A DNA stretch of 64,000 nucleotides, taken from assembly GCA_000004985.1 (NCBI GenBank), contig GG738880.1; one strand, written 5' to 3'. Below the pieces are notes generated by a model. That model ran no database searches, was not told the origin of the DNA, and worked only from the letters and a program-made list of their open reading frames with translations. The DNA is from Naegleria gruberi (taxonomy: Eukaryota). The translations under genes and the position numbers were made by a program. Positions within the stretch are counted from its first letter, which is position 1; each line of letters begins with the position of its first letter. Positions 9,830 through 48,681 of the stretch are shown here, in pieces.

Positions 9830-12800
9830 CTAAACAATATATGCATCATCTTGCCAGGCCATTATATTTGTTTGTTTGGCCATTGACGTGAACATTTCCT
9901 TATTTTTTCTATAATTCTTAAAAGAACTAGTGGAAATGAATCGATAGAAAGTATCATTCATGTTAATCATGATTTGTTGAGAGAGCGAATCAAAACAAGT
10001 GATGATTCTTGCTTTGAGGATTCGTTCTTCCTCTTCATTTAGACCATCCAATTGTTTGTGAAGCTCGTTTCCAAATAGAAGTGCATTGAATTGATTTTCT
10101 GGCGAGGTTGGCTCGTTGACTGGTGAAAATAATGCTTGATTACACGAAAGTAAGGCACTTCTTTTGGAGGATACATAAAAATGTAATTCTGTAAATAGAT
10201 TTTTGGTAAGGGATGGGACATTCACCTCATAGATCGATCCAGAGCATATAAAGTTCTCATTTATCCTGTCCATAAACATTGGAAGCAAAGATAAATTATC
10301 ACCCATGACAATTGACTTGTTTTGGATTAATTCCAAAAACAAGTAAAGATTTTCCAATGAAAATTCCTTCTTTGAATATTCTTCAAACAACTCAAATCCT
10401 GATTGATCTTGCAGAGTTTCAATTAATTCAGTTTGTTCAAATAATTCATCACTTGTTGCAATTGACCTCTTTTTGGTTTTAAATCTGAGCAATATTACCA
10501 AAGCAAATCCACCGAATATAAACACATAAATTGCAGAGTAGATAGTTTCGAAAATACACTGCAAAACTAGAAAATATTGAGCAGTGTCATCCTGTGAATC
10601 TTTGAATTCATGGCTCAGAATTCCACTCATCATTTGAATAAGGCAAGCTAAAAAGCAAACTAAAAAGAGAATCATTTCCATTCTGAAATATAGAGGATTA
10701 TCCAGTTGAAGTATTCTAAATAGAACATTCTTTCTTTCGAATGATAAAGATGGTCTATCAGTATTCATTTCGTCTTGTTTCCTTTCACTCAATTGAACTA
10801 CTCGAGAACTGTTTCTAATATTTGATTTTTCCTTCCTTCTTATAGAAGAAATAATATCAATCAAGATGGTGATGGAAATTGTGATAGAGCAGATGATTAT
10901 AATACCAGCATAGGTCATTGAAGTTATTCGAATGTAATCTTCAGGTAAAATCAAGTCTAATCGAACAAGTATTACCAATAACGACCAAATAATTACATTC
11001 ACCAACAGGCAAACTACAACTAGAAAGTTAAATAGAATTGGTGATGTAATTAATTTCAACATTCTAATGATATTTCTATTCGAATCATTCGTTTTTAGTT
11101 TCAATTCTTCATACAGAGCTTTCATAAATTGAAATCTAATAACCTGAATTAGATATGCAAATATTGCAGTGATATTCAAAGAATTCACAATAACCATGCA
11201 TACATTTCCAATAATATTCACACCCATCAAACTATTCGAAGGATCACTAATTTCATACACAAACAATCCCTCTTGTAAAATGGAAAGTACACTTTCGAAT
11301 AAAATAGCAATCATTCCCACAAATGGTGTAATCATTCTACTCTGCACTGGTTGCTGTTTTCTAAATATTCCTAGAAGAAACAACAATATAATTGAAACTA
11401 AACTGAAAATTACGTTAATTCCCATCTGAACATATTGAACTGACAAGACGAATGTTTGATCTATTGGAGCTTTAAACTTCATATTTGGTTTCGGTGGGTT
11501 TCCCTCGGAATATTCTGTAGAGGTCAAGTTTCTTCTTTCGTATTGGAGAAAAGTTGAGAATTTTGTTGTGTGTGAACATGAACATTGAGCTATTCCAGTA
11601 ATGTTATCGTAATAATCGAGGGAGCAGCCGTGTCCAGACCATTTCATTGAAATTTCGTCCCAGAATAGGCATGAGATGGCAAATTGTTCAACTATGGTCG
11701 TTGTCGTGTTAACAATAGTTTCGGTTTCATTATTGGAAACTGTTTCATTAATTTGAGATTCGGATAAAACTACTCGAGGATCTAATGTTAAATTTCCTCT
11801 GGAAACATCGTTAATAACAAACTGTAGAGTTATTGGATTCATTAAATCAACTTTACAACTTCAGCATTTTGAAAATATTTCAATTCTTGAATGAAAGATG
11901 ACATTTGATTTTGCATTGAAAAATTATCATTTCTGATGTTTCTTTCATATGTTATTAGTGATAGTCCAAGATTAGTTCCAAATCCACCATATTTTCCAGC
12001 AATTTCTCTCAAATCCAATTGAATGTTTCCTCCATTAGTTTCTAATAGAAATTTAGTAGAGTTTTGAGCTAAATTTTGCAAGCTTCTTGCGCCCCTAGTT
12101 AACACAAAGGAAGAAAAGGTAGTATTCAGTCCAGAGGTTGAAAATTTAGTATAGGGAAGATTAGTGACATCACTGTCAGTGCTCAAAACTTTAGGAATTT
12201 CTGATTTCAACATTAATTTCGTAAATGACAAGATTAAATTTTCAGTTTTCCGCATTTCATCATCAACTAACATCATTCCTTTTTGAGAAATAGTTATTGA
12301 GCTAGAAGATGAACCAAAAATATTTGCCAACAAACTACTTGCTGTCAATTTCGCATCTTGTGTCAAACTAGATTTCACATATCCGTACGAATCTATTTCT
12401 TTCTGATATAAATCCAAAGTATTATACAAAAAACTATTCACACTATTCGAAAGCTGATTCAAAACCTTCTTATCCTTCATTATTGAAGATTCGGATGAAA
12501 TTGAATTCAAAACTTTCAATGAAGAATCAGCATTTGTAATATCAATATTGAGATTATTAATTAAATTCAATATTAGATTGGTGTTATTCGTATTCGATAG
12601 AGCTGACTGATCAAAAAGAAGGACGTGTTTCGAATAATCGCTTAGGTATTCCAATTCTTTTGAAAGAGGATTGACCTGAGCTGTGGCCACTCTCAAGGAT
12701 TGTTCGAATCCTTCTGAATCTTTTACAAAGATTACAATATCAATGGGTGAGGTTGACCATGAATTTCTAGAAAGTGATTTGAATAGATAGGGAAGAGGAA

Positions 12801-15759
12801 GCTTTGAAACTGGTTCTGTTGAATATTCTGTTACTCTAATTAAGGAAGATGTTGATGGAATGCCATTGGTGGACTTGTCTTGATATTTGTTGTAAAATCC
12901 GAAAGCATACGAAAGTGGTCGAAGGTTTAAATTATTCACAATCCATTCAGGTGAAGAAACAAAGAATGAATCCACCACAGCCATTCCCTCTTTTGGACTC
13001 AATTCAATTCTATTAAAATAATCTTCTGGATAAATTGCAGGTTTTGTAATGATAATTGAAATTCTCGATTTTTCAAAGGATTGAAATGAATATCTTATTG
13101 AGAGAATTGTAACACTAATTTGAAATACAAACTCTGATCCGTCATCAAATGCATCCAAATTCATATTTGGGAATGGATTTGAAATATTCATTTGTAATAT
13201 TGGGTTGAGTTGAATAGTGGAATCGTCTCTATATCTCTGAGCTAGTATTGGTCCACTATTTTCAAGTATTCGAATTGGGGTTTTGAAATCTGATGAATTG
13301 AATACAGTTATAGTTGATTGGTAGTTCAATTGACAAGTAGTGTTATCTAATGAGAATCCAACACAATCGTTCAATAGAAAGTCAACTCCTTCAGGATAAT
13401 TAAACGAAACTCTGTTAATTAGAATGGAAATATCTAAATTCTTGGTAAATGCCATAGTGGAAGACAACTTGTAAGTTTGCACATTTGTAATTAGCACATC
13501 TTGAGGCTGAATTAGTTTCTTTGGTATGAACAATACAGTAGAAAGAGTATTCAAAAGAATATCTTGTGAATATCTCTCACTAAGCACTCCCCGAATCAAA
13601 AATTCATAATAATATTCTCTTTTTAGAGAAGAAACATCCAAACTAAACTCTTGACTCTCCACAATCCATGCATTTTCATAAGAATTGTACATGTAATCGG
13701 TACAATTAGAACACCAAACTCTATACGAAACTAAACCTGATTGAATACTGCTCCCAATCTTGAATGAAATCAACCCTTCACTCCCATTGACATTCGATCC
13801 ATTCAATGCTATTTCTAAATTAGCTGCAACTCTTGAACTATCAACATATGAATCACATAAACTTCCATAAAAGGTTCCATTCTCAGTCTTTTTACATTCA
13901 CAAGTATCGATATTGGAACAAACTCCATTTCCTGAACAAGCATTCGAATCTGTATTTGCAATTCCCCAACAAGAATATAATTCACAACTGTCTCCGTAAT
14001 ATCCATCCTGACAGGAACATTTCAATTCTTTGGTGCAGGTTCCTCTCTTCATACATTGAGGAATGATAGAGTTGGGTTGGCATTTGTAAGAGTTACACTG
14101 CTCTCCTGAATATCCAGTGAGGCATTCACAATGATCTGGACCTGTGCATTGTCCGAAACCAGAACAAACTAAACTATCGTTTGAGAATTTTCCATAACAT
14201 TGAAAGAGATCACATTGAGTCCCAACTCTTCCACTCTCTTCAGCACATAGACAATTGTTAGGCGCTACACAAGATCCAAATCCTGAACAAACTTTTTCAT
14301 TATTGTAAGGAATTTCATAACAATCAAAATTTTCACAAGTCGTTCCATAATAGCCCAATTGACAAGAACAATTTCCAGGTGAAATGCAACTTCCCCTTCC
14401 TGAGCATATGAGAGATTTACCTGTATCCAACAACAATACAGAAACTCCTCCACATTCATAATCATTACAAGTCACTCCAGAGAAACCCTCAAAACAAGAG
14501 CAGTTTCCTCCAACTTGACAATCTCCATTTCCAGAGCAAACTATTAGTGAGCTTGCCTTAATTCCATAACATTGACTTTCGTATTGACAGGCATCTCCAT
14601 AGAAACCATTTTTACATGAGCATTGATTCAGTCCAGTACATTTTCCATTCCCATAACAAACATTTGAATCATTACTCGGCACCCCATAACAATTCATAAA
14701 ACCACTGATGGTCATTAGATAACCATATGGTATGGTGGAACTGAGTGTTGGTCCACCACCAGCAAACAATAAGGAATTTCCCATATTAAGCACTGATATT
14801 CCATACGCAGAGTAAGGTGAGTTGAATGAAGTAACATTCTCCCAAATTGACATGTTATTAAGGTTAGCTCTAAGCATACTCCTTCCTAAAGATCCAGAAA
14901 AGATGTAGGCATAATTCGCAGAAATGAAAGAAGCACTTCCAAAAACTGAATTGGGTAGTGAAATGGGTGAAAGTTTCCAAACAGAATTTGATGATGCATT
15001 ACTTGTCGTGAGAGAATCCAATTGATCAAATGAAGTGTAATAGATTGTCTTGTAATAGTTTAGTAAATCACTTCCTCCTCCAACAATGTAAATCATTCTT
15101 CCTACGCTAAAGACACTAGCTGCAAATATGGCATTTGGAAATGTCCCAACTCTTTGCCAAATTGTTGGGGAGCTCAAGTTGGCCATATACACAGCTTTAG
15201 AATATTCTGAATTGAATGAACCTCCTATTAGAAAGAGGTTCTTCTCTGTTCTAAAGAAAACTGGCATTGTGCAAGAATAGGGAAGCTCCTCATCCAATAC
15301 TGAAAACGACTGCAAATCAGACAGTTTTGCTCGCATTATCTTTGATGTTCCACCTCCAAATATATAAGCATAATCAATTCCATTCAAGTTCAAAACTTGA
15401 AATGCATAGCCATAGGCCTTTTGAGGTAACTTTCCAATCACTGAGAATGGCCCCACAGTGTCAAGCGTAATTTGGGAGTAATTTGAATAACCTCCATTGA
15501 TCAGCTGGCTTGTAATTTTGCTCGAAATTGAAACGTTTGATGATTGAATATTGTCAAGAGGATTGTTTCCATCAAAACCTCCGAATGAATAAAGTTTCAT
15601 TGAGGATGAATCGAAGAAGAGAGTCGAATAGGAACCAGAAGCTTGGGGAAATACATTGAGTTGTGGGGAGAGGGTGAAGGGTTCTTCCTCGATTCCCATT
15701 AAAAAATTGTTGGATAGCTGAATGAGAGTTATAAAGATGAAGAGAAATAATCGAAGCAT
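9830..15759 (-). CDS. Giant adhesion-GPCR-like receptor: signal peptide, Kelch/galactose-oxidase-type beta-propeller, tandem EGF-like repeats, GAIN-like region with GPS motif, 7TM, C-terminal RGS domain. Proposed model join(15759..11860, 11821..9830)
   Basis: Seen: the upstream ORF (11842-15759) opens with a signal peptide, MLRLFLFIFITLIQLSNNF. Kelch-type blades follow (FGGFDGNNP, YIFGGG, LFLIGGSF, IYIVGGGSD, YIFSGSLG, LLFAGGGP). Then come about nine Cys-rich EGF repeats (CYGNGKCTGLNQCSCKNGFYGDACQ ...) and roughly 650 aa of mixed alpha/beta sequence. Its TAA stop overlaps the ATG of the next ORF (TAATG). The downstream ORF (9830-11842) begins with a GPS-type motif, CLFWDEISMKWSGHGCSLDYYDNITGIAQCSCSHTTKFSTF (consensus C..W......W...GC............C.C.HLT.F). 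It continues with 7 hydrophobic helices and a clear RGS domain (FEEYSKKEFSLENLYLFLE ... MINMNDTFYRFISTSSF). A GPS motif has to be preceded by a GAIN domain, which can only come from the upstream ORF. A 38-nt GT...AG intron (11859..11822) joins the two in frame (..KYFQNAE|FVINDVSRG..). The join is inferred. Confidence 0.55.
11822..11859 (-). other. Candidate 38-nt intron (GTTGTA...CTACAG) fusing the two halves of the adhesion-GPCR gene
   Basis: In-frame, phase 0 on both sides. The length is within the 38-80 nt range of the confirmed introns in this window. An alternative is a 1-nt assembly frameshift near 11845-11865. Confidence 0.4.
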
Positions 15760-15929: not shown

Positions 15930-16002
15930 TATACCCTGTGGGACTCGAACCCACAACCCCCGGCTCCGTAGGCCGATGCTCTTCCAATTGAGCCAAGGGT
16001 AC
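15930..16002 (-). tRNA. tRNA-Arg, anticodon ACG, 73 nt, no intron
   Basis: Seen: the minus-strand sequence GTACCCTTGGCTCAATTGGAAGAGCATCGGCCTACGGAGCCGGGGGTTGTGGGTTCGAGTCCCACAGGGTATA folds as a standard cloverleaf. It has a 7-bp acceptor stem with G1:U72 and a D-arm GCTC/AATTGGAA/GAGC. The anticodon stem-loop is TCGGC-CTACGGA-GCCGG (34-36 = ACG). The T-arm is GTGGG-TTCGAGT-CCCAC. Internal Pol III A and B boxes are present. The 127-aa ORF at 15929-16312 in the track overlaps this gene and is spurious. Confidence 0.85.
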
Positions 16003-20632: not shown

Positions 20633-23600
20633 ATGTCATCACAAGAGTTGTTGGAGATTGACAATCATAGTACGGAACATTCAAATGTTAACACTTCCAT
20701 CACTTCTCATCATCACGAATATCTTCACTATGGAGATTTCATTTCACTCTTCACTGAATCGAGTGGTGGAAGTATTGGATTTCTCAGTGTGGATGGAATT
20801 AATATTAATTGTAATAATATTCAAGGGTTTGTTTCTCTTTCAAAACTTAATAATTTTAATAATTTAATTAAATTGATAATCAATACATTAATCATTGGTT
20901 GCCAACATTAACGTTATTTAAACAAAATTAAAAAATGTTCGGAAAACAATTATTGGATCGCGATTGATATCTTATGTTTATTAATAATAATAATTGAATG
21001 ATGAATTGATAATGATAATAGGAATGTAAAACAAATTCGTTGTGGTCTTTCAGAGGCTGTGTCCTTGACTGGACATGAATCAAATCAACAACAAGCCTCT
21101 CACAATCAACAACAAACAACTACTTCCGACTCAAAGACAAAGCAAATTCCTCCCACCTATATGATCTCTAACTTTCAACAATGTGTTTTTCAAGTTTGTT
21201 ATCCGAAGAGTTATTCTGCCTTGAAAAAGTACAAACAACATTTGGATGAATTGGAAATCAAGGCTAGTGGTAATAGTGCAAAGAAGAGTCAAGACAATTC
21301 TGACAATGATTCGAAGAAGGTTATTCATCATGAGAGCAATGAAGTTGCTCAATTAAAGGAACGAATGGAACGTGAGATTCAACAAAATGAATTGGAAGCT
21401 CTGAGAAATTATGGAAAACCTGTTACATATGGCTCATCAATTCAATTACTTCATGTACAAACTCAAAGCTTTTTGACTGTTGCGAGAGAGTCTGCAGAAA
21501 TGCAGAAGGATTGTCTCAGATTATCATTGGATGATGTTGGATCGAAGTATTCACATTTTTCTCTACTTCCATATTTCAATTATCGTAGAGATGGAGAAAT
21601 TGTGAAACTTTCTGACAAGATTAGAATTTGGAATAGAAAATCTGCACAATATGTACAATTTTCATACTATAGATATAGTAATGCTGTAGAATCAGGCTTG
21701 AAGAATGCTCAAAGTATTGGTTCAAACGTTAATGAGATGGATAAATCATCTTACACACAATTAGCTAAAGAAGCTGTAAAGAATAATGCCAACCTTAAAA
21801 AATTCACATACGACAATAGAAGAGAAGTTAACATGTCAGCATCGAGTGCATTCTCACATTGGAATTTGAGAGTATTTTCACCTTGTAAAGATTCCCCTAC
21901 AGAAAGTAACAAATTCCTCAAAGCAGGTGATATAATAAGAATTTATCACAAAGAATTTGATGGTTTTTTAACTGTCAATGAAAAGACTGGAAGAGTCAAG
22001 CTGAAAAAGTCATTTATCAATCCTCTTATTGGAAGCTCAGCAAATGGAGAGGCATCTTTTTCAAATTCAGGTTTAAGTTCAATGAAGGGATCAGGTATGA
22101 AGTCATTCTCATCCAAATCAAGTCTGGTCTCTGGTCAATACTCTAGTTCGTTCAATCTGGCAGATTCCTTCTCATTGAGCAGTAAGAGTAGCCTGTCACT
22201 GGTTGACTCTTCTGAGAATACTCTTTCTGGTGTTATACAGGATGACTTTGATGTAACTTGTCATACATTGTGGCAAGTAGAAATGTTGGACTCAACCAAA
22301 GGAGGAGAGTTGAGGAAGAATTTCGTTTATAGGTTGAGACATGTCAGTACAGGAAACTATCTCATAGCAAGAATGGCCACTGATGATGAAGAGAAAAAAG
22401 AAAGAGATGCAGAAGATGCTGAAATTTCTGAATTCTCTCACAGTTCTTTCTACATTTCATCTGAATCAAGCTCTAGTTCTATTCAATTGCATAATACAAC
22501 AAGCCCACTTTCTAAAACACCAATCAAAACCAAGAAGGAGAATAATCTTAGCTTGTTCGTAGAACCACAAGATAATTGTACAAACCCTCTCAATATGTTG
22601 TTTAACTTGCAAGATTCCATGCTTTCTACAGATCACTCTGAGTTTTTCTTGAATGGGCAATTCAGACTCAGACATTATCTAACTAATACTTGGTTGCATT
22701 CAGTTAATTCGCAGAAAGCTTTTTCTAAATCATCTGAAAGAGCCTCTCTCAAATCTCATTACTCACCAGTATGTACCACTCAAGGCATGAGAGAGGAGGA
22801 TGTATTGACTTGTGTGTTGGTTTCCAGACCAGAAAGTGAAGACTTGTTCACAGTGCAAAGTTACATCCCAATTCTCAAATACTTTACTCAAAAACTTAAT
22901 GATGGATCTGTAAATAGGAGTGACATCAAGTTGTACATTGACGTAATTTCTAGTTGTATAAGATTTTGTACTAGCAGTTCTGAAATGGATCCCCTCCTGA
23001 GAAGTGGTATTCCAATCAAAAAAAACCAAAAATTAATGAGAGAAAAGGGTGTCATTACTATTGTTATGGATATTTTGATGGCACTTATTTCTAAGAATTA
23101 TGTAAAATTGGAAGAGTTATCAACAATTCAAGAAAGGAGTGACAAGATTGACTTTTTTGATGTAATTCAGTATTCATACAGATTCATTAGACAAGTTGTA
23201 CTTACAAACGAATCAAATGGTTTATTTATGGCACAGTACATTAACTTTATTCAGACCAACATTGAACATAGTATTAGTGCATCTGAGGCTCTTTTGCAAA
23301 TTTTATCCAACAATTTTTCCTTGTTGAATAAGATTACAGAGGACCAAATTGACTTTTTCATCAAATTATTATTCACAAACCCTACTAGTTCTAGTTCATT
23401 GAAGCAACATACAGAAAGATATGGAGGTTCTCTTAAGAAAGCTGTCTACTTATCCTTCTTGACCAGTCTAATCATATGTGAAGGAAAAACTGTCGTGAAA
23501 AACCAAAAGTATATTAGTAACCTGCTCTTCTCAACATTCAAGGAGCAAATGTTGAAGGTATTTGTAATACCAAGAATTAGAAAATCAGATGATAAGGTGA

Positions 23601-26600
23601 TTATCGATGTGAATCGTGTAGAGTATGAATTGGTCAATTTTTCAAAGTCTGCCACCAATATCGATCATATTACTTATTCAAAAAATAATTTTGAACTAAT
23701 GGTCTTCTTCCAAGAGCAAATCAAACTCTTTGCTGCCATGTGTACCGGAAGTAATGAAGCTACCGAAATGACAAGAGCAGCCATTATTCAGCTATTTACT
23801 TTTGAAATTGTGTACAAGTGTGTTGCAGAGTCGGCACTTACTCCAGCCTTGAGAACTTCTTTTGTCCATCTGCTTATGCACTGTTTCGTAGACACTGAAA
23901 AGAACGAAAAGAGAACATTTATTGAATTGACTCGTAAACTTGAATCCCTATCTGGAAAGAGTGTTCACGAATATACATCCCGTGAGCTTGGTGAGGTCAA
24001 GCAATTTCTAGAAGTTTTCTTCAGAGAGAATACCTCATTAGATATTGGATACGAGAAGAGAGATGTCAATAATTTTATTCTTTCCCTTGCTCAGTTGTGT
24101 GCAGGAATGATTGAATTTGGTATTTTCAATTTGAAAGACTTTGAAGAGACAGATCTCCTTGTTTCATTATTTAACATTCTCAGATCAGACAACGACACCA
24201 AAAATGGCTTACCATTACGTGATGAAGAAAGGTTCAAGCAATCAGAAGAAAACGTAACTGTAACTCAAATCAAGATTGAAATTGCCAAGATATTTCACAT
24301 GTTGCTAGACTTGCTGTTAGATAAGAGAATTACGAAATTCCTTCAATTCTTTTGGATGAAATACAAAATTGATGATATCAAGATTGTAATAGAGGAAGAA
24401 TCTGACTCATTGCTTGGTGTGACCTCCAATGACAAACAACAAGCACAATTGCTAAATTTACGTAAAAAGGAATTGGATAGAATATTCCAAGAAATGGACA
24501 CAAAGGAAAATCAGGTTTTGAAAGATATTTTCGAGAATACTACCCTTCCTTTCAAGATTATGTCAGAGTTTTCACTTAAAATTATCAACTTGACCTCCTA
24601 TGAGAATCAAGAACTATCCACAATATGTCTTCGTTTATTGATCAGAAGATACAGAGCAGCTGACGAGCTTGCAGAAGCTCTACCAAAAGTTGAATTGATT
24701 GTCTCAAGAGAAATGGCTCGTTCCTATGACCATTTGAGAAAACAGACTGCCGACTTGAGAAGTATTTTTGGTTATGGTAGAAGTAATTTCCTAGGTGCTC
24801 GTCACATCAGTGAATACGAAGTTAAAAAAGCTATGAAAGCCCTTGGAGAAGTTATTAGTGATATCAAAACTAATGGAAAGAGAAGTCAAAGAATTATTCG
24901 TAATCTCAATTTATTTGAACTCGTTTTGTCTGTTTTGAGGAAGGAGTGGATGGTTCCAACTGATATTCAAGAAAATTGCCTGACCATTTTAACAGAGTTT
25001 GTTAGAGGTAATCCAGACAATCAGAAACTTCTCTTCCCTTACATTGAATTTTTCATGAGACTGATCACAGAGAACAAGAAGCTTAGCAAGTATATTGTTC
25101 TATTGATGTGTGAAATTGTTAAGAATAATAGAACATTGTGCAGTATTTTGGAAGAAAAATTAATAGAGCAATACTTTGATTTGATTGCTGAACAGAGAAG
25201 TGCCTTCATGTTGCTTTTCTTAAGAACCATTTTGGCAACTCATAATAATACACCAATCAAAAGAAACCAATCCCTCATTACCAAATATATGGTTGAGAGA
25301 AAGAAAGATGTTTGTGTTCTATTCAAAGACGAAGAAGGTATGAGAGAACGTAACAATAGAATTACCAAGGAAGAACACAAAACAGAACCAGATGGTATTC
25401 TCAATTATCACATTGCACTATTGCACTTGATGGCTACTGCTGCTGATGGCAAGAATAGAGAAAGTGAGTTGCGTTTACAAACATTGTTTTCTTTTGAAGA
25501 GTTGTTGGAACAAGTTGTTTCTCCTTTCACATTGGCCATGATTAGAAATCCTCTCATCAAGATTATCAATGAAGTCTATATCAATGTGGAAAAGGCAACT
25601 GATGACCACCAGGAAAAGAAAACCGCCAATGTACATCATCCTTTGATGTATAAAATGTTTTCAAAGATGATTAGAGAGTTGGAATTTGTGGAGATGCTTC
25701 AAACTCTAGATGTGAATGCAATTGTAGGGTCAGAAGGAGCTACCAACTCACCTTCTCCCTCTGGTACTGGTGCTTCTCTATCTGCTAGCAGTGCTACTAA
25801 ATTATCGAATGCTAGTGTCAGACCTTCAATGAACCTTACCAATCAAGCACTGATTAGACAGAGTAGAGCTATAACCAATAGAAATTCATCCATTGCACCT
25901 AAAATGCAAGTAACTGAAGAGGATTTGGAAAAATTCCATGTTGACAATTACTATATATTCGAAGTTATGATTCCAGTTGTTCAGAATTATTTCCACTTGC
26001 ATTTCCCTCCTCCTAATCTGTTAAAGGAACAACTCGATGTTGCAGAAGATTTATTGCTGAAACTCATTGATTTACACAAATTCACGGCAAATACTGACCA
26101 AAGAGAACAAATTTACAAGTGTATTACTGCCATGTGGAAGAAGAGTATGTCTTCAGAGTCACAATTAGCCATTACCAAGTTCGTAACAAACAAGAACACA
26201 AAGGCAAAGATGACAAGATCCAGATTTGAAGTATCTTCTACAGTAGAAACTGATGAGTACATTCACAAGAGCTATACAAAGTATTTGCAAAAAAGAATTA
26301 TTAACAAGGTGGAAGAATTTTCGCACTTTAATAGGATTGGTGCTCTCTTTGAAAAGTATAACGGATTTGTGAAGGTACTTGTTAGAGCCCTCAGAAAGAT
26401 TAATACACCTCTATTGAATTACAGTCCATCCCTTCTTGAAGTGGGACTTTTGAGTATGGAAATTCTCAAAGATATTGTCAGATCTCAGAATAAGAGAGCT
26501 AAAGAGGTGAAACAAAAGGGAGAGAACGATGTTCCAGAAATTGAAAATTTGAACTATGTGGAAAATAAGCTTCCAGTAATGATCATTGAATTGATGACAT

Positions 26601-29302
26601 CATTTAATCCTGCTATTGTTAGATCTGCCATAGATCTTGGTATCTTGATTTTGAACCGTGGTGATAAGGCAATACAGGATGAGTTTTATAGAATATTGAC
26701 AGAAACTGACTCGTCCTACTTCTTTGAATCATTGAGAGATAGAATCCGTCTTGGTAAGACAGAAATCAAGGAGAGAAAGAATTACCTCAAGAAGAAAAGG
26801 GATAAAGACTATGCCTTGTTCAAACAACGTCAAAGACAAGAAGTTGCCAAGGTTCGTGCTAAGGATGAAAATGATTCCTCCCGACCAATGGAAGAGGAAG
26901 AAGAAAGAGATTTACAAGAGGACTTTGTTGAAATGGGACATATTGAATTACTTTTCGAGTTTTTGAGACTTTTATGTGAAGGACACAATGTTGAAATGCA
27001 AACACTTCTCTTAAATCAACCAGTTAATACTCTGAACGTGAATGTTGTTACAGAAACAATTGAATATATGATTGCTCTAGAGAAAAAGATTGATTTTGAT
27101 AACGTTCAAATTGCTATTCAAGGTTTCAAGACCTTGACAGAATTCATTCAAGGCCCAGCTCTTGTCATCCAACAAGCTATTGGTACTTCTCCGAGATTCT
27201 ACGCCAGACTGGTCAATGAAATCATGTCTAAAACATATGAAGATGGAAACTTGCTAAAACAACAAGAACTTGGATTGAAGAGGGAAGTTTTACTTACTCT
27301 CAATGCTCTTCTAGAAGGAATGAACAATAGTGTATTTGATTTTATGAGACATTCCCTGAACTTTGATGAATTGGAGCATTTCCTTTTGTTCTCTGCCAGA
27401 TTTTTGCATTCTCTAGAAACCAAACATGAGAACTCTGATGCAAAGGACGAATACAATGAAATCAAGCAAAGGTTGAGAAGAGATTTTGATCATCACTTCC
27501 TTCATGAAGCCACACGTGACAAGGCTAATCCAGTTATTGCAGAAGATTACATTGCAGTCTATATGCCAATGATCAAGAATTTATTGAAAGAGACTGGTAA
27601 TTTTGCCTTTTTCTTGCTTAACATTTTCAGAGATGGTGAAAGAGAAAATTTGAGAAATATTTCAAGAAGTGCCTTTATTTCTGTAGAGGAAGAAAACAAA
27701 CTTTTAAGGATTACCAACATGTTGGATAATCATTCTCAATTAGTTTCAGTATTTTCCGAATCGACAGCAAGTATTGAAGTGTTGCGTGATAACAAGATTG
27801 AGAAGATTTACTTTTCCAAACCAACCATATGCAACAATTTGATGGACAAGGCAAGAAGTAATTATGTAAACTCTCTGGATGTCATGGCACCTGAAGAGAA
27901 AGTTCGTACTCTTTACAACCATACCTTCAGTATTTTCCAAGTTGAAATGGAGCATTATGAATTGATGAAGAAAAAGTCCACCATCAAGGATAAATTAGAA
28001 GATCTAGTTGGTATAGCCAACAAACACACAGAAGAAGTGACAGAGTTTGTGCCTACAATGGCTCAACTGAGAAATAAGTACAAGAGGAAAAAGAAACTCT
28101 CCATTGGAACTAGTTCTAAAAACAGGGACCAAACAGCAAGTTGGGAATTTATTGCTCACTGGTGGGACAGAATTCGTTTATTATCTTTTATATTTTGTGT
28201 GGTTCTTAACATTTTCGTTTTAGGATTTTTGAAGAGACTCTACTCAGCAAACACAGTAGATGACATTCCAGTACCTGGAGATTTGGATTTTGATATTACG
28301 TTGGCATCAAAATATCCTACAACAAGAAATTTGGCTGGTGATATTATTATAACTATTCTGGGAGCCATTCAATTGATAACAACAGCATCATTGGCCATTA
28401 TTTACGCAAAAGTTTTTATTACTCTTGAAGTGAAGAAGAGATTCAAACTCAAAAAGAGAGAGAAATGGGAAAATATTCCAAGAAATAGAGAATTCTATTG
28501 GAAATTTATCTTTTACGCACTTCAAGATTTACAAATGTGGTTCTTTGTACTGTACTTTGTTCTCAGTGTATTAGGATTATTGATATCTCCAATAGTTTAC
28601 AGTATTCAATTGTTCGAAATTGTTTTCAGATTTAAGAGTTTGAATGACGTGTTGAGGGCTGTCATTTCCAATGGAAAAAAGCTCTTTTTTGCAGGCATGT
28701 TACTTGGAATAACCATGTTCTTGTTTGGATTGCTATTCTTCTCATGGTTCTCTAATGATTTCACACTTGAATCTAATGGAACAAAAACATGTGAAAGTGT
28801 GTTGGAATGTTTTGTGACAATGTTTGACTATGGTTTCAGAAGTGAGTCATCATGGGAAAATATGTATCCACACAATCCAACTGTTGGAAGGGCCATCCTA
28901 GACTTGGCATTTAACATGATTGTAATCGTGTACCTTTCTAACGTTGTGTTCGGTACAATTCTAGATTCTTTCCAAGAATTGAGAGCAGCAAGAGAGGAAC
29001 GTAAGAATGAAATTAGAGAAAAGTGCTTTATATGCGCTCTGGAAAAGAGTAAATTTGATACAAAAGCCAATGAAGGAATTACCTTTGAAAAGCACATTAA
29101 GGAAGAGCATTACTTGTGGAATTATGTCTACTTTTTAATTTACTTGTACGAGAAACCTGAAACTGAATATACAGGTGTTGAAAGTTATATTTTCGAAAAG
29201 TGTGAGGAGAATGATGATGTAACAAGCTTCTTCCCAATATTTAGGTCTAAAACAATTGAGGAAAGCGAACAAACAAAGGTTTCATTAGGAGGATCGGATT
29301 AA
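20633..29302 (+). CDS. Inositol 1,4,5-trisphosphate receptor / ryanodine-receptor-family Ca2+ release channel, about 2.8k aa; exon 1 is 20633..~20830 and exon 2 is ~21056..29302
   Basis: Seen: exon 1 (the 92-aa ORF in the track) matches the IP3R N-terminus (LHYGDFISLFTESSGGSIGFLSVDGININCN vs human [31 protein letters not shown]). After an AT-rich stretch the large ORF resumes the alignment (PPTYMISNFQQCVFQVCYPKSYSALKKY vs [23 protein letters not shown]). The C-terminus has a 6-TM block and the IP3R gatekeeper region (KCFICALEKSKFD...ITFEKHIKEEHYLWNYVYFLIYLYEKPETEYTGVESY vs human [53 protein letters not shown]). Two intron models are phase-consistent: 20831..21055 and 20898..21053. The exact boundaries are therefore uncertain. 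Confidence 0.8.
20831..21055 (+). other. Intron between IP3R exons 1 and 2, about 225 nt; alternative model 20898..21053
   Basis: An AT-rich, low-complexity stretch interrupts conserved IP3R N-terminal sequence. Both GT...AG models keep the frame. The first model avoids translating the low-complexity VSLSKLNNFNNLIKLIINTLII. Confidence 0.45.
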
Positions 29303-32684: not shown

Positions 32685-35600
32685 ATGAGTGAAGCTCACA
32701 CAGACAGTGCGGAGTCATCAACAACCACCAGTTTTTCATTTGCCACTCAAGTAAAAGAGAGGTTTGGAGAATGGATTGTTGTATTGAGGAATTCCAAAGC
32801 GATTGATAGTAACAAGTGGAGGATTTTTCACACCCTCACCGAATTGTATATATTATATTGTGCTCTATTCATTCCAACGATGAGAAATTACGGTTATGGA
32901 GAGTATGGACAGATCATGTTTAGTATCGTGGATTTTCCAATGCATTTTTTCTTACATTGGATTCAATATGAAGAAAGTTTCATAGTGAGTGGATTATTTG
33001 TGGGATTTTTAGTGTTGGCCTATGGTTTGCTGTTTGTTACCACATGGGCCTTCTCGAAAGGGAAACCTTTTAGGAAAAATCTTAGATCTCCCCTCATTAT
33101 CATCATGTACCTTTGTAGAATGTTATTTCCTCTCTTTATTCATCAAGTGATTGGATACATGGATTGTAGTTTGACTCACACTGTGCCCTACACGAGTAAG
33201 AACACTCTGAATCGATATTCAACGATAGCATGTTCAGAATCTCCGAATAGTATTCTTATTGGCCTGTCAGTGACCTTTCTCTTCTTCCTTCTGATATTTG
33301 TTATTGTATCAGAGATGATTTGCTCCGATATGCATCCAATGAGTAGACACATCTTTACACACGATAACTATTGGACCATGGTACTGCTGAGAGTGTGCTC
33401 ATTCATGAGCGTTCTCATCATGTTCTTAATCCCTATAGAATATCCCTATATATCATCAATTGTGAATATGGCTCTATCACTAATTGCTCTCATCATTCTC
33501 TTCAAGACACTTCCCTTCTACCGATCTATAAGCAGCTCTATTGTATTCGGTGTTTATTGTGGAGCACTTACAAGTTCATGTGGAACCTTAATAACCTTCT
33601 TCATCACCTCGCTCGCCTTAAACACTCCCAACACTTCATCTCCTCTCTTTAAGGAAGTTAGCGCGGGTCTTTCAGGGTTTATCGTTATTTTAGCAGTTTT
33701 GGGATTTTTGGGAGGTTTATCTTTTTTGGAATTATATCAGCGACAATTAAGAAAGACCATATTAAGGGAGGTGTTAAAGATGCGTTCTGTTTATAGACAA
33801 ATACTACCTGAGGAGAGTAATACAGTACTCTCACCTAATGCAGCTGCCACAGGTAGAGAGAATAATTTTCTTACTGTTCATCGTACTCCTGTGAAGAGAT
33901 TGTCAATTGATATACAATCGAGTTATACGACAGCTGATTCGGCTTATCAGCAATTTATGTTAAATGCTAGAGCTAGTGTGAAACAGTATAAGAAGGGATT
34001 GTTGTTATTATTGAGATCTGATTTGGTGGAAACTTCTAATACAACGAAAGATTTGAATGGAGAAACAGTTCAAATTCATGAAATTACAATGAGATTATGT
34101 AAGAATATTTTACAGAGAGGATTTGGAGATCGTCAAGTCATGGAAACTGTGGCAATGTTGTTCGCTTACAGACACATTTGCACTTCATCAAGTTTAACTG
34201 TAGCCGTCGAATTGTTACTCAAAAGTCAAAAATATTCAAACCTTCTTACTCACAATTTCTCATCGATCAAAATTACTGAAATTCAAAGCTTGGAAGAAGC
34301 TCNNNNNNNNNNNNNNNNNNNNNNNNNNNNNNNNNNNNNNNNNNNNNNNNNNCAGTTTGAGGAATATTATCAATAAGATAAGTGAGTTGACAATGGAGAG
34401 TGAACAAGTCTTTAAACAACTCCTATCGAGAAAGACAAAGAAAATACTAAGTTTGTACGCTTCATTTGTGGAAATTGTGTATTTTGATAAGGAAGGAGCT
34501 CATGCATTGTACTTGGAAGCCAATGCAATGGAAGAGCAGAAACCAGTCAAACTGCAAAAATACAAGACATCGAGAATTATGCCACAACCAATGTCAAAAG
34601 ATGACAACTTGTCAGAACAAGGTTCATTTCAAAAGAGAGCTAGTTTCTTTTCAGATGCTGAATTTGCTCACCAACAATTATTGGATGATGTATTGGAGGA
34701 AAGTGCAAGTGTTGCTGGCGCAGGAGGCGAACTCAAAAAGGATTACCTATTTAGGAATGCTTTGAAAACTTTAAAATCAAATACGGCAACTAAAATTTTC
34801 TATGCCATATTCTTATTACTGGGAGGATTTATAATTTTGGGCTCGATTGGTTTGTCCACTTATCAAGGGGCCATTATTAAGAAAAATATTGTAAATTTGA
34901 GATTAATTTGTGTTCCACAAATTTCACCAATTTCCACAATTAGAAATTTGAGAGCTTTCCAAAATTGGGTGAATATGTTTGTGTTGAATGAATATAGTTG
35001 GCCAGAACAAAGACATGGATTTTTAAATGAGTATATAACAGTAAGTTTTGCTTTAAAGAACCATTTCACATGAACTATTTATAGGCATATGTTGATGATC
35101 ATCGTCGAGTATTGGAACAGGACATTTCAGTATTGGAAGACTTGGTAAAATTAGGTCAATTGGTAGCGTTTGATGCATCTACCTATACAGCATATGGAAA
35201 ATCACAATATTCCTTCAGGGTTCCAAGTGTTAATGGAACTGATTCTTGGTCAAAATTACAATTTACTGGAATTCCAGAAAATAGAACACTGTCGATAATT
35301 GAAATGACTAATTCCTTATTGCAATATATGGATGAAATCAAAACTGTTCTTCCATTCAACGATTTGAATGCATTCTTCAATACAACCAATCAAACTGCCC
35401 GACATCAAATTCAAGAACGTTTATTGAACTCTACACTTCTCAATCCAGTTAATGATTTCAGTTTCATGTTACTATGGATTAATATGAAATCAAGTTCTTT
35501 ACAATACAAGGAATTCTGCTCCAATTTCATGAAGAAGAGCAATATTCAAGCCAATGACATGATTTACCAATTCGAATATTTTTTCATTGGAACATTATGC

Positions 35601-48500: not shown

Positions 48501-48681
48501 TTGTTTTTGATTTGTTATTTGATGATGTATTCTTATCTGATCCTGTTGCTGATGATCCAGCACCTCCACCAAGTGCCGTGCTCATCTGATTGTGCTTTAA
48601 CACTACAGAGACGATAAATTTGCACTGCTCTGTTGATCGGAGAACTTCCTTGCAAAATTCTGTCCTCAGAGGTTGTTGCAT
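45559..48681 (-). CDS. Inositol polyphosphate 5-phosphatase with a C-terminal RhoGAP domain (OCRL/INPP5B-like)
   Basis: Seen: 5-phosphatase catalytic motifs WYGDLNYRI and PSYTDRILW lie in an endonuclease/exonuclease/phosphatase-fold core (IYAIGMQE..., GNKGGVGVRF). An ASH-like linker follows. The C-terminal RhoGAP-like segment is ..PKELWRLIDLIYHNGMKEEGLFKYSGAAREVHYIRQCLDEG.... The N-terminal 250 aa may form a PH-like module, as in OCRL. Uninterrupted 1040-aa ORF with an ATG start. Confidence 0.8.
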   Translation of the reverse strand: MQQPLRTEFCKEVLRSTEQCKFIVSVVLKHNQMSTALGGGAGSSATGSDKNTSSNNKSKTNNTSEKNVPLSKSTAVFAKKELESVLLALVGNSDKPTNLAIMILEYSVETNSFRIRDFQPIKRQDFGVKIVDETHFDLFFKRQAIVYNFQSESASSQWLIVSSLLKACKLVNDATPEPNEIIVEQPVVKTPVSNTPSNRSSILRSTNEMSLTEFLVDAETNFEIIPSPSTESEWCNHYIQRMQKDKAQKVKNDECQDISIDMFKKTNRQTSLSQNGPNQSNDIAQKATINTATDTLSQEVSRKDNWIQRQLKLKEDEFTEVTPISIVVCAWNVNNKFPSADSSLAKWLHLDEFEADIYAIGMQEIDMTAASLLKEETETGQEWQNLLIKTFADEAKQNRYKLVSARQLVGIYHAIFIKESFANDINEVRNCAEGVGIMGMMGNKGGVGVRFKLFDSTFCFITAHLAPHMGAVERRNQNFHDIVKKTDFGNPSLYRPDQHDFFFWYGDLNYRINQPNLIVREKIKQQDYKFLLKYDQLMIEKNAKNAFVGFAEGEINFDPTYKFDSGTDVYDTSEKGRVPSYTDRILWREDEKSTIVHKSYKSFKEYKMSDHKPVTACFEVGVKKIVEEKYKKCYLDIIKMLDKLENDLLPEVAITGQCIDFEAVKYEEPITQTILLKNTGQVVCEYQFVPQPHEKAPCKPYMTIEPLEGYVIPGETEEIKVTISVSTQKALKLLSGEDKIDDILILHLKNGRDHFISITGTYIQSCFGSTLDKLVKQKCPVLKSESDVELSSFDKDLKIPKELWRLIDLIYHNGMKEEGLFKYSGAAREVHYIRQCLDEGSPLLNPVSNHSIAESLMTFLESLREPVVPFKFYQMCLNASTNSATCHHLISMLPDVHFNTFHYLMSFLREVLKYKKFNSLTLEEVAIIFSRVLLRSPLQEKAHHTHDESLKYYEEQKAKAQFIGHFLKEDKVWTRDEVLRSDELEEDLFDAQDDDVSSELASDSTSFSLLQNDQLKTSESNSHSNNQQSTSQPLSADEFL

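What the first reader, a model, noticed from the sequence alone, without database searches (positions are those of the whole stretch)
9830..15759. Two abutting ORFs (TAATG overlap) encode one adhesion-GPCR-like giant gene with a C-terminal RGS domain: Kelch propeller, EGF repeats, GAIN/GPS, 7TM, RGS
A GPS motif (C..W...W..GC...C.C.H.T.F) opens the downstream ORF only about 58 residues from its Met. Established adhesion-GPCR knowledge says a GPS motif does not fold without roughly 300 residues of GAIN domain upstream. That domain can only be the C-terminal third of the 1305-aa secreted Kelch/EGF ORF. That ORF ends in TAA sharing a base with the ATG. A 38-nt GT..AG intron, or a 1-nt assembly error, fuses the two in frame. 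This would make a receptor of about 1960 aa. Its extracellular adhesion modules feed a 7TM core with its own GTPase-accelerating RGS domain. Such a self-inactivating GPCR architecture is known from plant AtRGS1-type proteins but is unusual in combination with a GAIN/GPS adhesion ectodomain.
Basis: partly seen in the sequence, partly recalled or inferred. Interest (0 to 1): 0.8.

Follow-up and report, generated by a model that had tools for sequence, protein, structure and literature searches.

The report
Frameshift-split Naegleria GAIN-7TM-RGS receptor gene
The two abutting reading frames are the halves of one Naegleria gruberi cell-surface receptor gene, of a type already described in Naegleria fowleri, broken in this sequence by a tiny frame-shifting deletion rather than by an intron.

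Summary
ORFs 15759..11842(-) (1305 aa) and 11842..9830(-) (670 aa) share one base (TAATG). Between them they carry a signal peptide, a probable Kelch-type propeller, 7 EGF repeats, a GPS motif, 7 TM helices and an RGS domain. The window is Naegleria gruberi.

The one-gene reading is supported:
- Dozens of homologues, including intact N. gruberi paralogues (e.g. NAEGRDRAFT_71475, 2634 aa), read straight through the junction.
- A GAIN-domain profile is covered at positions 10-259 by the upstream ORF and 264-339 by the downstream ORF.
- An AlphaFold model of the closest paralogue's region (pLDDT 87) matches the BAI3, BAI2, CELSR1 and latrophilin GAIN crystal structures.

The 35/38-nt intron is disfavoured, because it would delete conserved residues and scores 15-34 bits lower than frameshift repairs. 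The break is a net -1 frame lesion at about 11848. A 4-nt deletion fits best, then a 1-nt one. Assembly error or real mutation cannot be told apart here.

The parts
15691..15759 (-). Start codon and signal peptide (aa 1-23 of the upstream ORF)
   Evidence: Hydrophobic N-terminus, residues 2-23. The ORF start is at 15759.
14710..15672 (-). Probable six-bladed Kelch-type beta-propeller (aa ~30-350)
   Evidence: Sub-threshold Pfam Kelch hits. PDB phmmer hits to Kelch propellers at E 5e-5 to 4e-3. Recurring xxGG blade motifs. The same module is present in paralogue P0004.
13840..14694 (-). Seven EGF-like repeats (aa 356-640; 42 Cys)
   Evidence: Pfam EGF_2 at 89.5 bits and EGF_Teneurin at 56.5 bits. 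Cys count.
12682..13839 (-). About 390-aa family-conserved region of unknown fold (aa 641-1026)
   Evidence: Conserved across the family (consensus PLxYAxGF, FVxDxxGN). No Pfam hit and no PDB sequence hit.
11848..12681 (-). GAIN domain, first part: helical subdomain A and the first ~8 strands of subdomain B (upstream ORF aa 1027-1304)
   Evidence: Matches the family GAIN HMM at positions 10-259, 155.7 bits. It is 42% identical to the P0004 region, which is modelled at pLDDT 87. Profile hits to the ADGRL3 GAIN domain. Foldseek hits to BAI3, BAI2, CELSR1 and latrophilin GAIN structures.
11845..11860 (-). Frame-break zone. This is the only stretch where both reading frames are open, and homology places the lesion at ~11848, between TTG (Leu) and GAT (Asp). 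It includes the TAA stop (11844-11842).
   Evidence: Frame 0 gives ...AEVVKL(I*). The downstream frame gives (V)DLMNPITLQF. Homologues read V-x-L-x-[DNE]-L-x-x-P-[IL]-x-L-x-F.
11531..11848 (-). GAIN domain, second part: the last ~6-7 beta-strands (downstream frame, 'DL' plus aa 1-104)
   Evidence: Matches the family GAIN HMM at positions 264-339, 78.2 bits. Residues 1-53 are disordered when modelled alone (pLDDT<50), and strands form at 53-104.
11555..11674 (-). GPS motif (downstream aa 57-96) with C58, W68, G72, C73, C87, C89 and H91-T92-T93
   Evidence: Pfam GPS at 25.5 bits, above the 22.5 cut-off. GPS was found in 33 of 34 family members. Nearly invariant columns.
11564..11572 (-). Putative autoproteolysis triad H-T|T, followed by a Stachel-like TKFSTFL
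   Evidence: H, T and T are invariant or nearly invariant in the family. Coordinates. Cleavage itself is not testable here.
10457..11458 (-). Seven-transmembrane domain (downstream aa 129-462)
9869..10444 (-). Cytosolic RGS domain (downstream aa 467-658) with a ~50-aa insert (553-604)
   Evidence: Pfam RGS at 25.0 bits, above the 23.9 cut-off. PDB sequence hits to RGS1, RGS16, RGS4 and others. Foldseek hits to RGS1 (TM 0.69) and RGS16 (0.76). E493, E497, N498, E539, N541, N627, D630 and R634 are invariant in 34 sequences.
9830..9832 (-). Stop codon of the reconstructed gene

Best explanation
What it is. Window 9830-15759(-) is one Naegleria gruberi gene for a type-I, adhesion-like 7TM-RGS receptor of about 1976-1977 aa. 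Its order is: signal peptide, probable Kelch propeller, 7 EGF repeats, a ~390-aa conserved region of unknown fold, a complete GAIN domain with GPS motif (H-T|T, then TKFSTFL), a GPCR-fold 7TM bundle, and a cytosolic RGS domain.

The break. In this sequence the reading frame is broken inside a loop of GAIN subdomain B, at about 11848. The lesion is a small deletion that shifts the frame by one position. A 4-nt deletion fits best and a 1-nt deletion is next. The break creates the TAA stop. The next in-frame ATG, which lies at a variable loop position, then produces the TAATG overlap by coincidence. There is no intron here.

Assembly error or real. This cannot be decided from the sequence. I lean to a real, very recent lesion, either a young pseudogene or a null haplotype (about 55:40). 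My reasons: the best repair needs 4 nt, and every family-invariant residue on both sides is still intact.

Inferred mechanism of the intact protein, by analogy with N. fowleri 7TM-RGS proteins and AtRGS1:
- The ectodomain binds an extracellular or cell-surface ligand.
- The GAIN/GPS module may be self-cleaved and present a tethered peptide to the 7TM bundle.
- The 7TM bundle controls the activity or location of the RGS domain.
- The RGS domain accelerates GTP hydrolysis on G-alpha subunits.

Shown versus inferred. Shown here: domain content, GAIN continuity across the junction, the frame break, and family membership. Inferred: cleavage, ligand binding, GAP regulation, and the cause of the lesion.
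For: Identity and public annotation:
- The upstream ORF is identical to the public N. gruberi model P0001 (1305 aa). Downstream residues 359-670 are identical to XP_002675122.1 / NAEGRDRAFT_69765 (312 aa).

One gene:
- The HMMER search of 1.84 billion representatives with the downstream ORF gave 160 hits. P0004 (N. gruberi paralogue, 2634 aa) aligns query residues 3-665 to its residues 1960-2629, and P0006 (N. lovaniensis, 2402 aa) aligns query 3-352 to 1626-1979. In nearly all GPS-covering hits the GPS lies hundreds to about 2000 residues from the N-terminus.
- The metagenome homologue P0002 is a single 1846-aa ORF. It aligns to the upstream frame as far as 11848 and then to the downstream frame.
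- All 20 aligned homologues read through the junction with the spacing L-x-[DNE]-L-x-x-P-[IL]-x-L-x-F.
- Against the GAIN HMM built without N. gruberi rows, the upstream piece matches positions 10-259 and the downstream piece 264-339.

Frameshift versus intron:
- Frameshift repairs score 257.0 bits (+4 nt), 247.8 (+1 nt) and 244.2 (T-run).
- Intron models score 226.9 (35 nt), 222.5 (38 nt) and 227.0 (53 nt).

GAIN fold:
- The family profile hits ADGRL3 chains over profile positions 118-326 (E 3e-10) and many other adhesion-GPCR GAIN domains.
- The AF2 model of the P0004 region has pLDDT 87.4 and pTM 0.86, with about 6 main helices (several shorter ones) followed by a beta-sandwich.
- Foldseek top hits are 4dlo BAI3 (E 5.5e-11), 8oek BAI2, 8vy2 CELSR1, 4dlq latrophilin-1 and 5kvm GPR56.
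- The junction maps to the loop between strands 269-271 and 280-285 of that model.
- The downstream ORF modelled alone leaves residues 1-53 disordered.

7TM and RGS.

Family precedent: N. fowleri has 28 7TM-RGS proteins. Several carry GPS motifs, EGF repeats and lectin domains, and their RGS domains act as GAPs on Nf G-alpha subunits in vitro (PMC9283941).
Against: - The GAIN fold is therefore shown for the 42%-identical paralogue and transferred by alignment and HMM.
- No transcript, read-level or second-assembly data were available, so the lesion's reality and the gene's expression are untested.
- The preference for a 4-nt over a 1-nt repair rests on 9 bits of HMM score and on loop-length conservation in the 20 homologues inspected, with the family consensus agreeing. 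A lineage-specific one-residue-shorter loop plus a 1-nt base-calling error remains possible.
- GT..AG boundaries that restore the frame do exist.
- The GPS -1 residue is Thr, not the canonical Leu, so autoproteolysis is uncertain.
Confidence: 0.87

Rival explanations
1. Same single gene, but the frame break is an assembly or base-calling error in the reference sequence. In the organism the gene would be intact and encode the full ~1976-aa receptor. This is nested within the best explanation and differs only on the cause of the lesion.
For: - Both halves are otherwise flawless. There is no other stop in 5.9 kb of a 33% GC genome, and all family-invariant residues are retained.
- A single added base restores a protein scoring 247.8 bits on the GAIN HMM.
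- The public gene models were built on the same sequence and carry the same break.
Against: - The best repair is +4 nt (257.0 vs 247.8 bits). All 20 homologues inspected at the junction keep the L-x-x-L-x-x-P spacing, which a 1-nt fix does not restore, and the family consensus agrees.
- Dropping 4 bases is not a typical consensus error (inference).
- No read data could be checked.
Confidence: 0.38
2. A very short spliceosomal intron (GTAAAG...CAG of 35 nt at 11856..11822, or GTTGTA...CAG of 38 nt at 11859..11822) joins the two ORFs in frame.
For: Both candidates have GT..AG ends, span the stop, have length 2 mod 3, and give an open ~1964-aa product.
Against: - Splicing would remove 'VVKLI' and 'MNPITLQ'. 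These align with a strand and loop conserved in every homologue (L, L and P are nearly invariant).
- Intron models score 15-34 bits below the frameshift repairs on a family HMM.
- The downstream frame is homologous (D-L) even upstream of the ATG.
- Homologues P0002 and P0004 have continuous coding sequence here.
Confidence: 0.04
3. Two genuine genes form a genetically pre-split receptor. One is a secreted 1305-aa ectodomain. The other is a separately translated 670-aa GPS-7TM-RGS protein that starts at the TAATG Met. The two would reassemble by beta-strand complementation within the GAIN domain, or would work independently.
For: - The upstream ORF has a signal peptide and no TM segment. The downstream ORF starts with an ATG and is intact.
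- Adhesion GPCRs normally exist as non-covalent NTF/CTF pairs (established knowledge).
Against: - The break lies about 80 residues upstream of the GPS cleavage site, in the middle of the beta-sandwich.
- The downstream protein has no signal peptide for its 130-aa glycosylated, disulfide-bonded N-terminus, and that N-terminus is disordered on its own.
- No complete homologue is organised this way. The few hits in which the GPS lies near the N-terminus are short or partial records (for example P0005, whose cluster-mate is 2127 aa); intact paralogues exist in the same genome.
- The Met is at a non-conserved position.
- Reinitiation at TAATG is not a known eukaryotic nuclear strategy (knowledge).
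Confidence: 0.03
4. Programmed -1 ribosomal frameshifting at ~11848 produces the full-length protein from the sequence as it stands.
For: The downstream frame is the -1 frame. A slip after TTG would give ...VVKL-DLMNPITLQF..., a product scoring 247.8 bits.
Against: - There is no X_XXY_YYZ slippery heptamer in the last 60 nt of the upstream frame.
- The 101 nt downstream have no unusual structure: MFE -11.3 kcal/mol, z = +0.57, and 144 of 200 shuffles fold at least as well.
- Homologues need no frameshift.
Confidence: 0.01

Closest known systems
Naegleria fowleri seven-transmembrane RGS proteins with GPS motifs and EGF/lectin ectodomains (Nf 7TM RGS1-4; Bosch et al., J Biol Chem 2022, PMC9283941)
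   Same: - Same genus-level family. The downstream ORF hits N. fowleri FDP41_006917 (2127 aa), N. lovaniensis C9374_006556 (2402 aa) and several N. gruberi paralogues at 35-44% identity over GPS-7TM-RGS.
- Same domain order: EGF repeats, GPS, 7TM, C-terminal RGS.
- RGS residues are invariant across the family.
   Different: - This copy is frame-broken and mis-annotated as two proteins.
- Its N-terminal module is Kelch-like, whereas the paper mentions lectin or carbohydrate-binding domains.
- The paper describes GPS motifs only. Here a complete GAIN domain (helical subdomain A plus beta subdomain B) is shown for the family.
- GAP activity was measured for the Nf proteins, not for this one.
Metazoan/holozoan adhesion GPCRs (class B2: latrophilins, BAI, CELSR, ADGRG/F/E)
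   Same: - A large modular ectodomain with EGF repeats.
- A GAIN domain with a four-Cys, two-Trp GPS motif directly before TM1.
- Structural matches to the BAI3, BAI2, CELSR1, latrophilin-1 and GPR56 GAIN domains, and profile matches to ADGRL3, F1, G1, G3 and E5.
- A Stachel-like T-x-F-x-x-[FL]-L after the putative cleavage site.
   Different: - The GPS triad is H-T-T rather than H-L-T/S.
- The C-terminus carries an RGS (GAP) domain, which predicts G-protein deactivation rather than activation.
- The organism is a heterolobosean. A recent survey places the origin of the GAIN-7TM module in stem holozoans (PMC12716839).
Arabidopsis AtRGS1 and other 7TM-RGS proteins of plants, Trichomonas and other protists
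   Same: Seven TM helices followed by a cytosolic RGS box. The presumed logic is a receptor-regulated GAP acting on G-alpha.
   Different: - By my recollection AtRGS1 has a short N-terminus with no ectodomain and no GAIN/GPS. This protein has about 1430 extracellular residues.
- Sequence relatedness of the 7TM parts was not tested here.
Polycystin-1 / PKDREJ family (GAIN/GPS attached to a non-GPCR membrane domain)
   Same: A precedent that GAIN/GPS modules are combined with membrane domains other than class B 7TM, behind very large ectodomains (established knowledge; PMC9672506 was listed).
   Different: The membrane part there is an 11-TM, TRP-like domain with no RGS. No sequence relationship beyond GAIN/GPS was found or tested here.

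Membership tests
Adhesion GPCR (class B2) | GAIN domain (helical subdomain A plus beta-sandwich subdomain B) immediately N-terminal to TM1 | tested here: met
   - Profile hits to the ADGRL3 GAIN domain over ~210 positions, E 3e-10.
- AF2 model of the 42%-identical paralogue region at pLDDT 87.
- Foldseek top hits are GAIN crystal structures, E 5.5e-11 to 1e-8.
- The N. gruberi halves cover HMM positions 10-259 and 264-339.
Adhesion GPCR (class B2) | GPS motif with conserved Cys/Trp pattern | tested here: met
   Pfam PF01825 at 25.5 bits, above the 22.5 cut-off. Found in 33 of 34 family members. C58, W68, G72, C73, C87, C89 and H91 are conserved.
Adhesion GPCR (class B2) | Autoproteolysis at H-L|T/S and a tethered-agonist TxFAVLM | not testable with these tools
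   The sequence is H-T|T-K-F-S-T-F-L. His(-2), Thr(+1) and Phe(+3) are conserved in the family, but the -1 residue is Thr. Cleavage and agonism need experiments.
Adhesion GPCR (class B2) | 7TM domain of the secretin/adhesion family (Pfam 7tm_2) | tested here: not met
   - No 7tm_2 or other GPCR family hit for the ORF at E<=0.1 or in 14 family members at E<=1.
- The 7TM profile found no GPCR among the PDB sequences.
- Foldseek shows no class preference.
7TM-RGS receptors (Naegleria 7TM RGS / AtRGS1 type) | Seven TM helices with GPCR fold, followed by a cytosolic domain | tested here: met
   [not shown]
7TM-RGS receptors (Naegleria 7TM RGS / AtRGS1 type) | C-terminal RGS domain with G-alpha contact residues | tested here: met
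   - Pfam RGS at 25.0 bits, above the 23.9 cut-off.
- PDB hits to RGS1, RGS16 and RGS4, and Foldseek TM 0.69-0.76.
- EFSLEN, EVN and NDTFYRF align with RGS1 EFSEEN, QIN and KDSYPRF and are invariant in 34 sequences.
- The mapping to RGS4 S85/E87/N88, N128 and D163/R167 is from memory.
7TM-RGS receptors (Naegleria 7TM RGS / AtRGS1 type) | GAP activity on G-alpha, regulated by the extracellular side | not testable with these tools
   GAP activity was shown in vitro for RGS domains of N. fowleri relatives (PMC9283941). Nothing was measured for this protein.
7TM-RGS receptors (Naegleria 7TM RGS / AtRGS1 type) | Sequence homology to annotated Naegleria family members | tested here: met
   E 1e-148 to 1e-60 to N. 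gruberi, N. lovaniensis and N. fowleri proteins of 1200-2600 aa.
Intact single-ORF gene | Uninterrupted reading frame from signal peptide to RGS | tested here: not met
   TAA at 11844-11842. Both frames are open only in 11860-11845.
Spliceosomal intron at the junction | Removal restores a product that matches homologues | tested here: not met
   GT..AG candidates exist, but they delete conserved residues and score 15-34 bits lower than the frameshift repairs.
Programmed -1 frameshift site | Slippery heptamer plus a downstream stimulatory structure | tested here: not met
   No X_XXY_YYZ heptamer. The downstream fold has z = +0.57.
Kelch beta-propeller | Kelch repeats above the family threshold | tested here: inconclusive
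   All Pfam Kelch models fall below their cut-offs. PDB phmmer gives designed Kelch proteins at 5e-5 and KLHL2 at 3.7e-3. Five or six xxGG blade motifs are present. No structure was predicted for this part.

The most novel reading that the evidence does not exclude
The break is real and tolerated. N. gruberi would then make the receptor from two separately translated polypeptides: a secreted Kelch-EGF-GAIN(N) fragment and a GAIN(C)-GPS-7TM-RGS fragment. These would reassemble by strand complementation inside the GAIN domain. That would be a genetically 'pre-cleaved' adhesion-type receptor, showing that the GAIN fold can be built in trans.
Probability: 0.03. Interest if true: 0.85.

Novelty: new member of a known kind. 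Interest (0 to 1): 0.38.

Why it matters
For this locus:
- The result is mainly an annotation correction. Two public N. gruberi 'predicted proteins' (1305 aa and 312 aa, NAEGRDRAFT_69765) and an unannotated 1.07-kb stretch between them (10769-11842, encoding GPS + TM1-5) belong to one ~1976-aa receptor gene.
- In the reference sequence that gene carries a single frame-breaking lesion.

For the family, three points reach somewhat further:
- These Naegleria 7TM-RGS proteins carry a complete GAIN domain, not just a GPS motif.
- The GAIN domain is attached to a GPCR-fold 7TM bundle with no detectable class-B sequence signature, followed by a GAP domain.
- A recent survey places the origin of the GAIN-7TM module in stem holozoans (PMC12716839). 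A GAIN-7TM module in a heterolobosean therefore means either a much older linkage or an independent one.

It also raises a testable question: can a tethered-agonist mechanism regulate a GAP rather than a GEF? The architecture was already noted for N. fowleri in 2022, so this is a refinement rather than a discovery.

Tried and rejected
- Exact look-up of both ORF products in the contig index found nothing, although the upstream ORF is identical to P0001.
- The first word-indexed homology search returned only two hits. The exhaustive HMMER search was needed to see the family.
- A 57-sequence full-length alignment failed, so batches of 20-34 were used.
The closest paralogue's GAIN region was folded instead, and the downstream ORF was folded on its own.
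- The afdb50 fold library was unavailable, so structural similarity to AtRGS1-type proteins could not be checked.
- An exact-pattern scan of metagenome contigs for a repaired allele (0-6 extra bases between TT and GAT) found nothing.
- A literature search for N. gruberi intron lengths gave no usable number. The intron was therefore judged on homology, not on length.
- A PDB sequence search with the 641-1026 region gave nothing.
- Considered and rejected, for the reasons given under the rival explanations: an intron (35, 38, 53 or 104 nt), a -2 nt repair, programmed -1 frameshifting, and translational coupling at TAATG.
Full report
Observation.
The window is AT-rich (about 33% GC) and is Naegleria gruberi nuclear DNA. 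On the minus strand there are ORFs 15759..11842 (1305 aa) and 11842..9830 (670 aa). The sequence at the boundary is ...GAA GTT GTA AAG TTG ATT TAA TG AAT CCA ATA..., so the stop and the ATG share base 11842.

The upstream ORF is identical to the public 'predicted protein' P0001. Residues 359-670 of the downstream ORF are identical to XP_002675122.1 / NAEGRDRAFT_69765. The public annotation therefore has two models, and 10769-11842 is not annotated as protein.

Domain content:
- Pfam finds EGF_2 and teneurin-type EGF repeats in the upstream ORF. The Cys count gives 7 six-Cys units.
- Kelch-type matches are all sub-threshold in Pfam. Weak PDB hits to Kelch propellers agree.
- In the downstream ORF, GPS (residues 57-96, 25.5 bits) and RGS (475-550, 25.0 bits) are both above Pfam's curated cut-offs.
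- Hydropathy shows a signal peptide and no TM segment upstream. Downstream there are seven TM helices and no signal peptide, and the first 135 residues carry six sequons and four Cys.

One gene or two.
The exhaustive HMMER search with the downstream ORF found 160 relatives. Almost all that cover the GPS are 1200-2600 aa long and carry the GPS deep inside the protein.
- The best complete hit, P0004, is an N. gruberi paralogue (NAEGRDRAFT_71475, 2634 aa). It aligns from residue 3 of the downstream ORF to its own residue 1960, and it has the same Kelch-like, EGF, GPS, 7TM, RGS order.
- Hits from N. lovaniensis and N. fowleri behave likewise.
- A metagenome homologue, P0002, is a single uninterrupted 1846-aa ORF on its contig. 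By tblastn it follows the upstream frame to 11848 and then the downstream frame.

In an alignment of 20 full-length homologues, every sequence reads through the junction with the pattern ...[DE]FK[YF]...V-x-L-x-[DNE]-L-x-x-P-[IL]-x-L-x-F. In N. gruberi, frame 0 supplies ELKYFQNAEVVKL. The downstream frame, read from two codons before its ATG, supplies DLMNPITLQF.

An HMM of the GAIN region was built without the N. gruberi rows. The upstream piece alone matches it at positions 10-259 (155.7 bits) and the downstream piece alone at positions 264-339 (78.2 bits). The two ORFs are complementary halves of one domain.

GAIN fold.
- A profile of the region (34 sequences) hits adhesion-GPCR chains in the PDB. 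For ADGRL3 the match covers about 210 positions of its GAIN domain, not only the GPS (E 3e-10).
The model has pLDDT 87.4 and pTM 0.86. It shows an N-terminal bundle of about six main helices (plus several shorter ones) followed by a beta-sandwich.
- Foldseek against the PDB returns the GAIN domains of BAI3 (E 5.5e-11), BAI2, CELSR1, latrophilin-1 and GPR56 as top hits.
- The N. gruberi break maps to the loop between strands 269-271 and 280-285 of subdomain B. That is about 80 residues before the H-T-T site.
- The downstream ORF folded alone leaves its first 53 residues disordered, as expected for orphan strands.

How the halves are joined.
GT..AG candidates of 35 and 38 nt exist, but they would delete VVKL(I) and MNPITLQ, which align with conserved residues. 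Scores against the family HMM:
- Frameshift repairs: 257.0 bits (+4 nt, ...VVKLNDLMNP...), 247.8 (+1 nt, ...VVKLDLMNP...), 244.2 and 241.9.
- Intron models: 226.9 (35 nt), 222.5 (38 nt), 227.0 (53 nt) and 199.6 (104 nt).

Both frames are open only between 11860 and 11845, and homology places the switch at about 11848. There is no slippery heptamer and no stable downstream RNA structure (z = +0.57), so programmed frameshifting is unlikely. The ATG lies at a position that is D, T or K in homologues. The TAATG overlap is a by-product of the frameshift, not a coupling signal.

Error or real.
This cannot be settled here.
- For an artefact: everything else is intact, including all family-invariant residues.
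- For a real lesion: the best repair needs four nucleotides, because all 20 homologues inspected at the junction keep the L-x-x-L-x-x-P spacing. The consensus of a second batch of 21 agrees.
- One 4-nt deletion is a simpler history than a lineage-specific one-residue deletion plus a base-calling error at the same spot.
- I lean about 55:40 towards a real, very recent lesion (a young pseudogene or a null haplotype).
- A scan of metagenome contigs for a repaired allele found nothing.

The membrane and cytosolic parts.
- Foldseek shows no class preference.
- No Pfam GPCR family, 7tm_2 included, is hit by any of 14 family members. A 7TM profile finds no solved GPCR by sequence.
- I therefore do not file the protein as an adhesion GPCR. 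It shares the GAIN/GPS module but not a recognisable class-B 7TM.
- The RGS domain is supported by Pfam, by PDB sequence hits (RGS1, RGS16, RGS4) and by structure (TM 0.69-0.76). It carries a ~50-aa insert.
- The motifs EFSLEN, EVN and NDTFYRF align with the G-alpha-contacting segments of RGS1 and RGS16 and are invariant in 34 family members.

Comparison with what is known.
- Bosch et al. 2022 (PMC9283941) reported 28 7TM-RGS proteins in N. fowleri. 'A number' have GPS motifs, and several have EGF-like repeats and lectin domains. They also showed that RGS domains of three of them are GAPs for Nf G-alpha subunits.
- 7TM-RGS proteins are widespread in non-metazoan eukaryotes (PMC3971589).
- I found nothing in the searchable literature that pairs 'GAIN domain' with 'Naegleria' (zero papers). 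The demonstration that the family has a full GAIN domain joined to a non-class-B 7TM appears to be new.
- A recent survey concludes that the GAIN-7TM module arose in stem holozoans (PMC12716839). The Naegleria family is a counter-example or an independent invention. That is a family-level point, not specific to this locus.

Mechanism (inferred).
- The intact protein would sit in the plasma membrane with about 1430 extracellular residues.
- Ligand or contact sensing by the propeller and EGF part would be relayed through GAIN/GPS to the 7TM bundle. This may involve self-cleavage at H-T|T and exposure of TKFSTFL as a tethered peptide.
- The 7TM bundle would then control the GAP activity or the localisation of the RGS domain acting on G-alpha.
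- Only the domain content and homology are shown here. Cleavage, ligand and regulation are inference by analogy with adhesion GPCRs, AtRGS1 and the N. fowleri work.

Verdict.
The one-gene, split-GAIN interpretation is supported. The intron alternative is rejected in favour of a frameshift lesion. The novelty is low (a new member of a known kind), with a modest evolutionary point about GAIN-7TM modules outside Holozoa. Interest 0.38.

Noticed in passing
window 10769-11842 (-): The public N. gruberi protein set has no model for this stretch, which encodes GPS plus TM1-5. The downstream gene model (NAEGRDRAFT_69765, 312 aa) starts at an internal Met at 10768, and the upstream model stops at the TAA.
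   Followed up: yes
window 12682-13839 (-), upstream ORF aa 641-1026: A region of about 390 aa between the EGF repeats and the GAIN domain is conserved across the family (consensus PLxYAxGF ... FVxDxxGN). It has no Pfam or PDB sequence match, so its fold is unknown.
   Followed up: partly
window 15930-16002 (-): A tRNA-Arg(ACG) gene sits 170 nt upstream of the receptor gene's start codon, on the same strand.
   Followed up: no
window 21059-29299 (+): A 2747-aa ORF encodes an IP3-receptor/ryanodine-receptor-like channel (RIH, MIR, Ins145_P3_rec, RIH_assoc and Ion_trans domains).
   Followed up: no
window 35112-37634 (+) and 45562-48681 (-): Further signalling genes lie nearby: a PAS-domain adenylate/guanylate cyclase, and an OCRL-like inositol 5-phosphatase with ASH and RhoGAP domains.
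   Followed up: no
model of P0004 GAIN region (Foldseek): Besides GAIN crystal structures, the model hit chains of axonemal doublet-microtubule complexes at E 1e-6 to 1e-4: 8glv_AE (Chlamydomonas), 8j07_k3 (human), 9fqr_Hn (bovine) and 9y6s_9K (Leishmania). This is unexplained. It could reflect the helical bundle alone or a GAIN-like axonemal protein.
   Followed up: no
[not shown]
   Followed up: partly
downstream ORF aa 553-604 (window ~10031-10186): The RGS domain is interrupted by an insert of about 50 residues between its N- and C-terminal halves. Part of the insert is low-confidence in the model (572-579).
   Followed up: no
L001 2140-7680 (+), JGI metagenome 3300002220: The metagenome homologue P0002 (1846 aa, contig GC 39%) has the same EGF-GAIN-7TM-RGS core. 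Its N-terminal ~540 residues are different (no Kelch-like region; repetitive N/S/T-rich segments), which shows ectodomain module swapping within the family.
   Followed up: no
same 416,450-bp public scaffold, outside the window: A 2067-aa paralogue (NAEGRDRAFT_80461, P0007) lies on the same scaffold as this gene, which suggests local family expansion.
   Followed up: no
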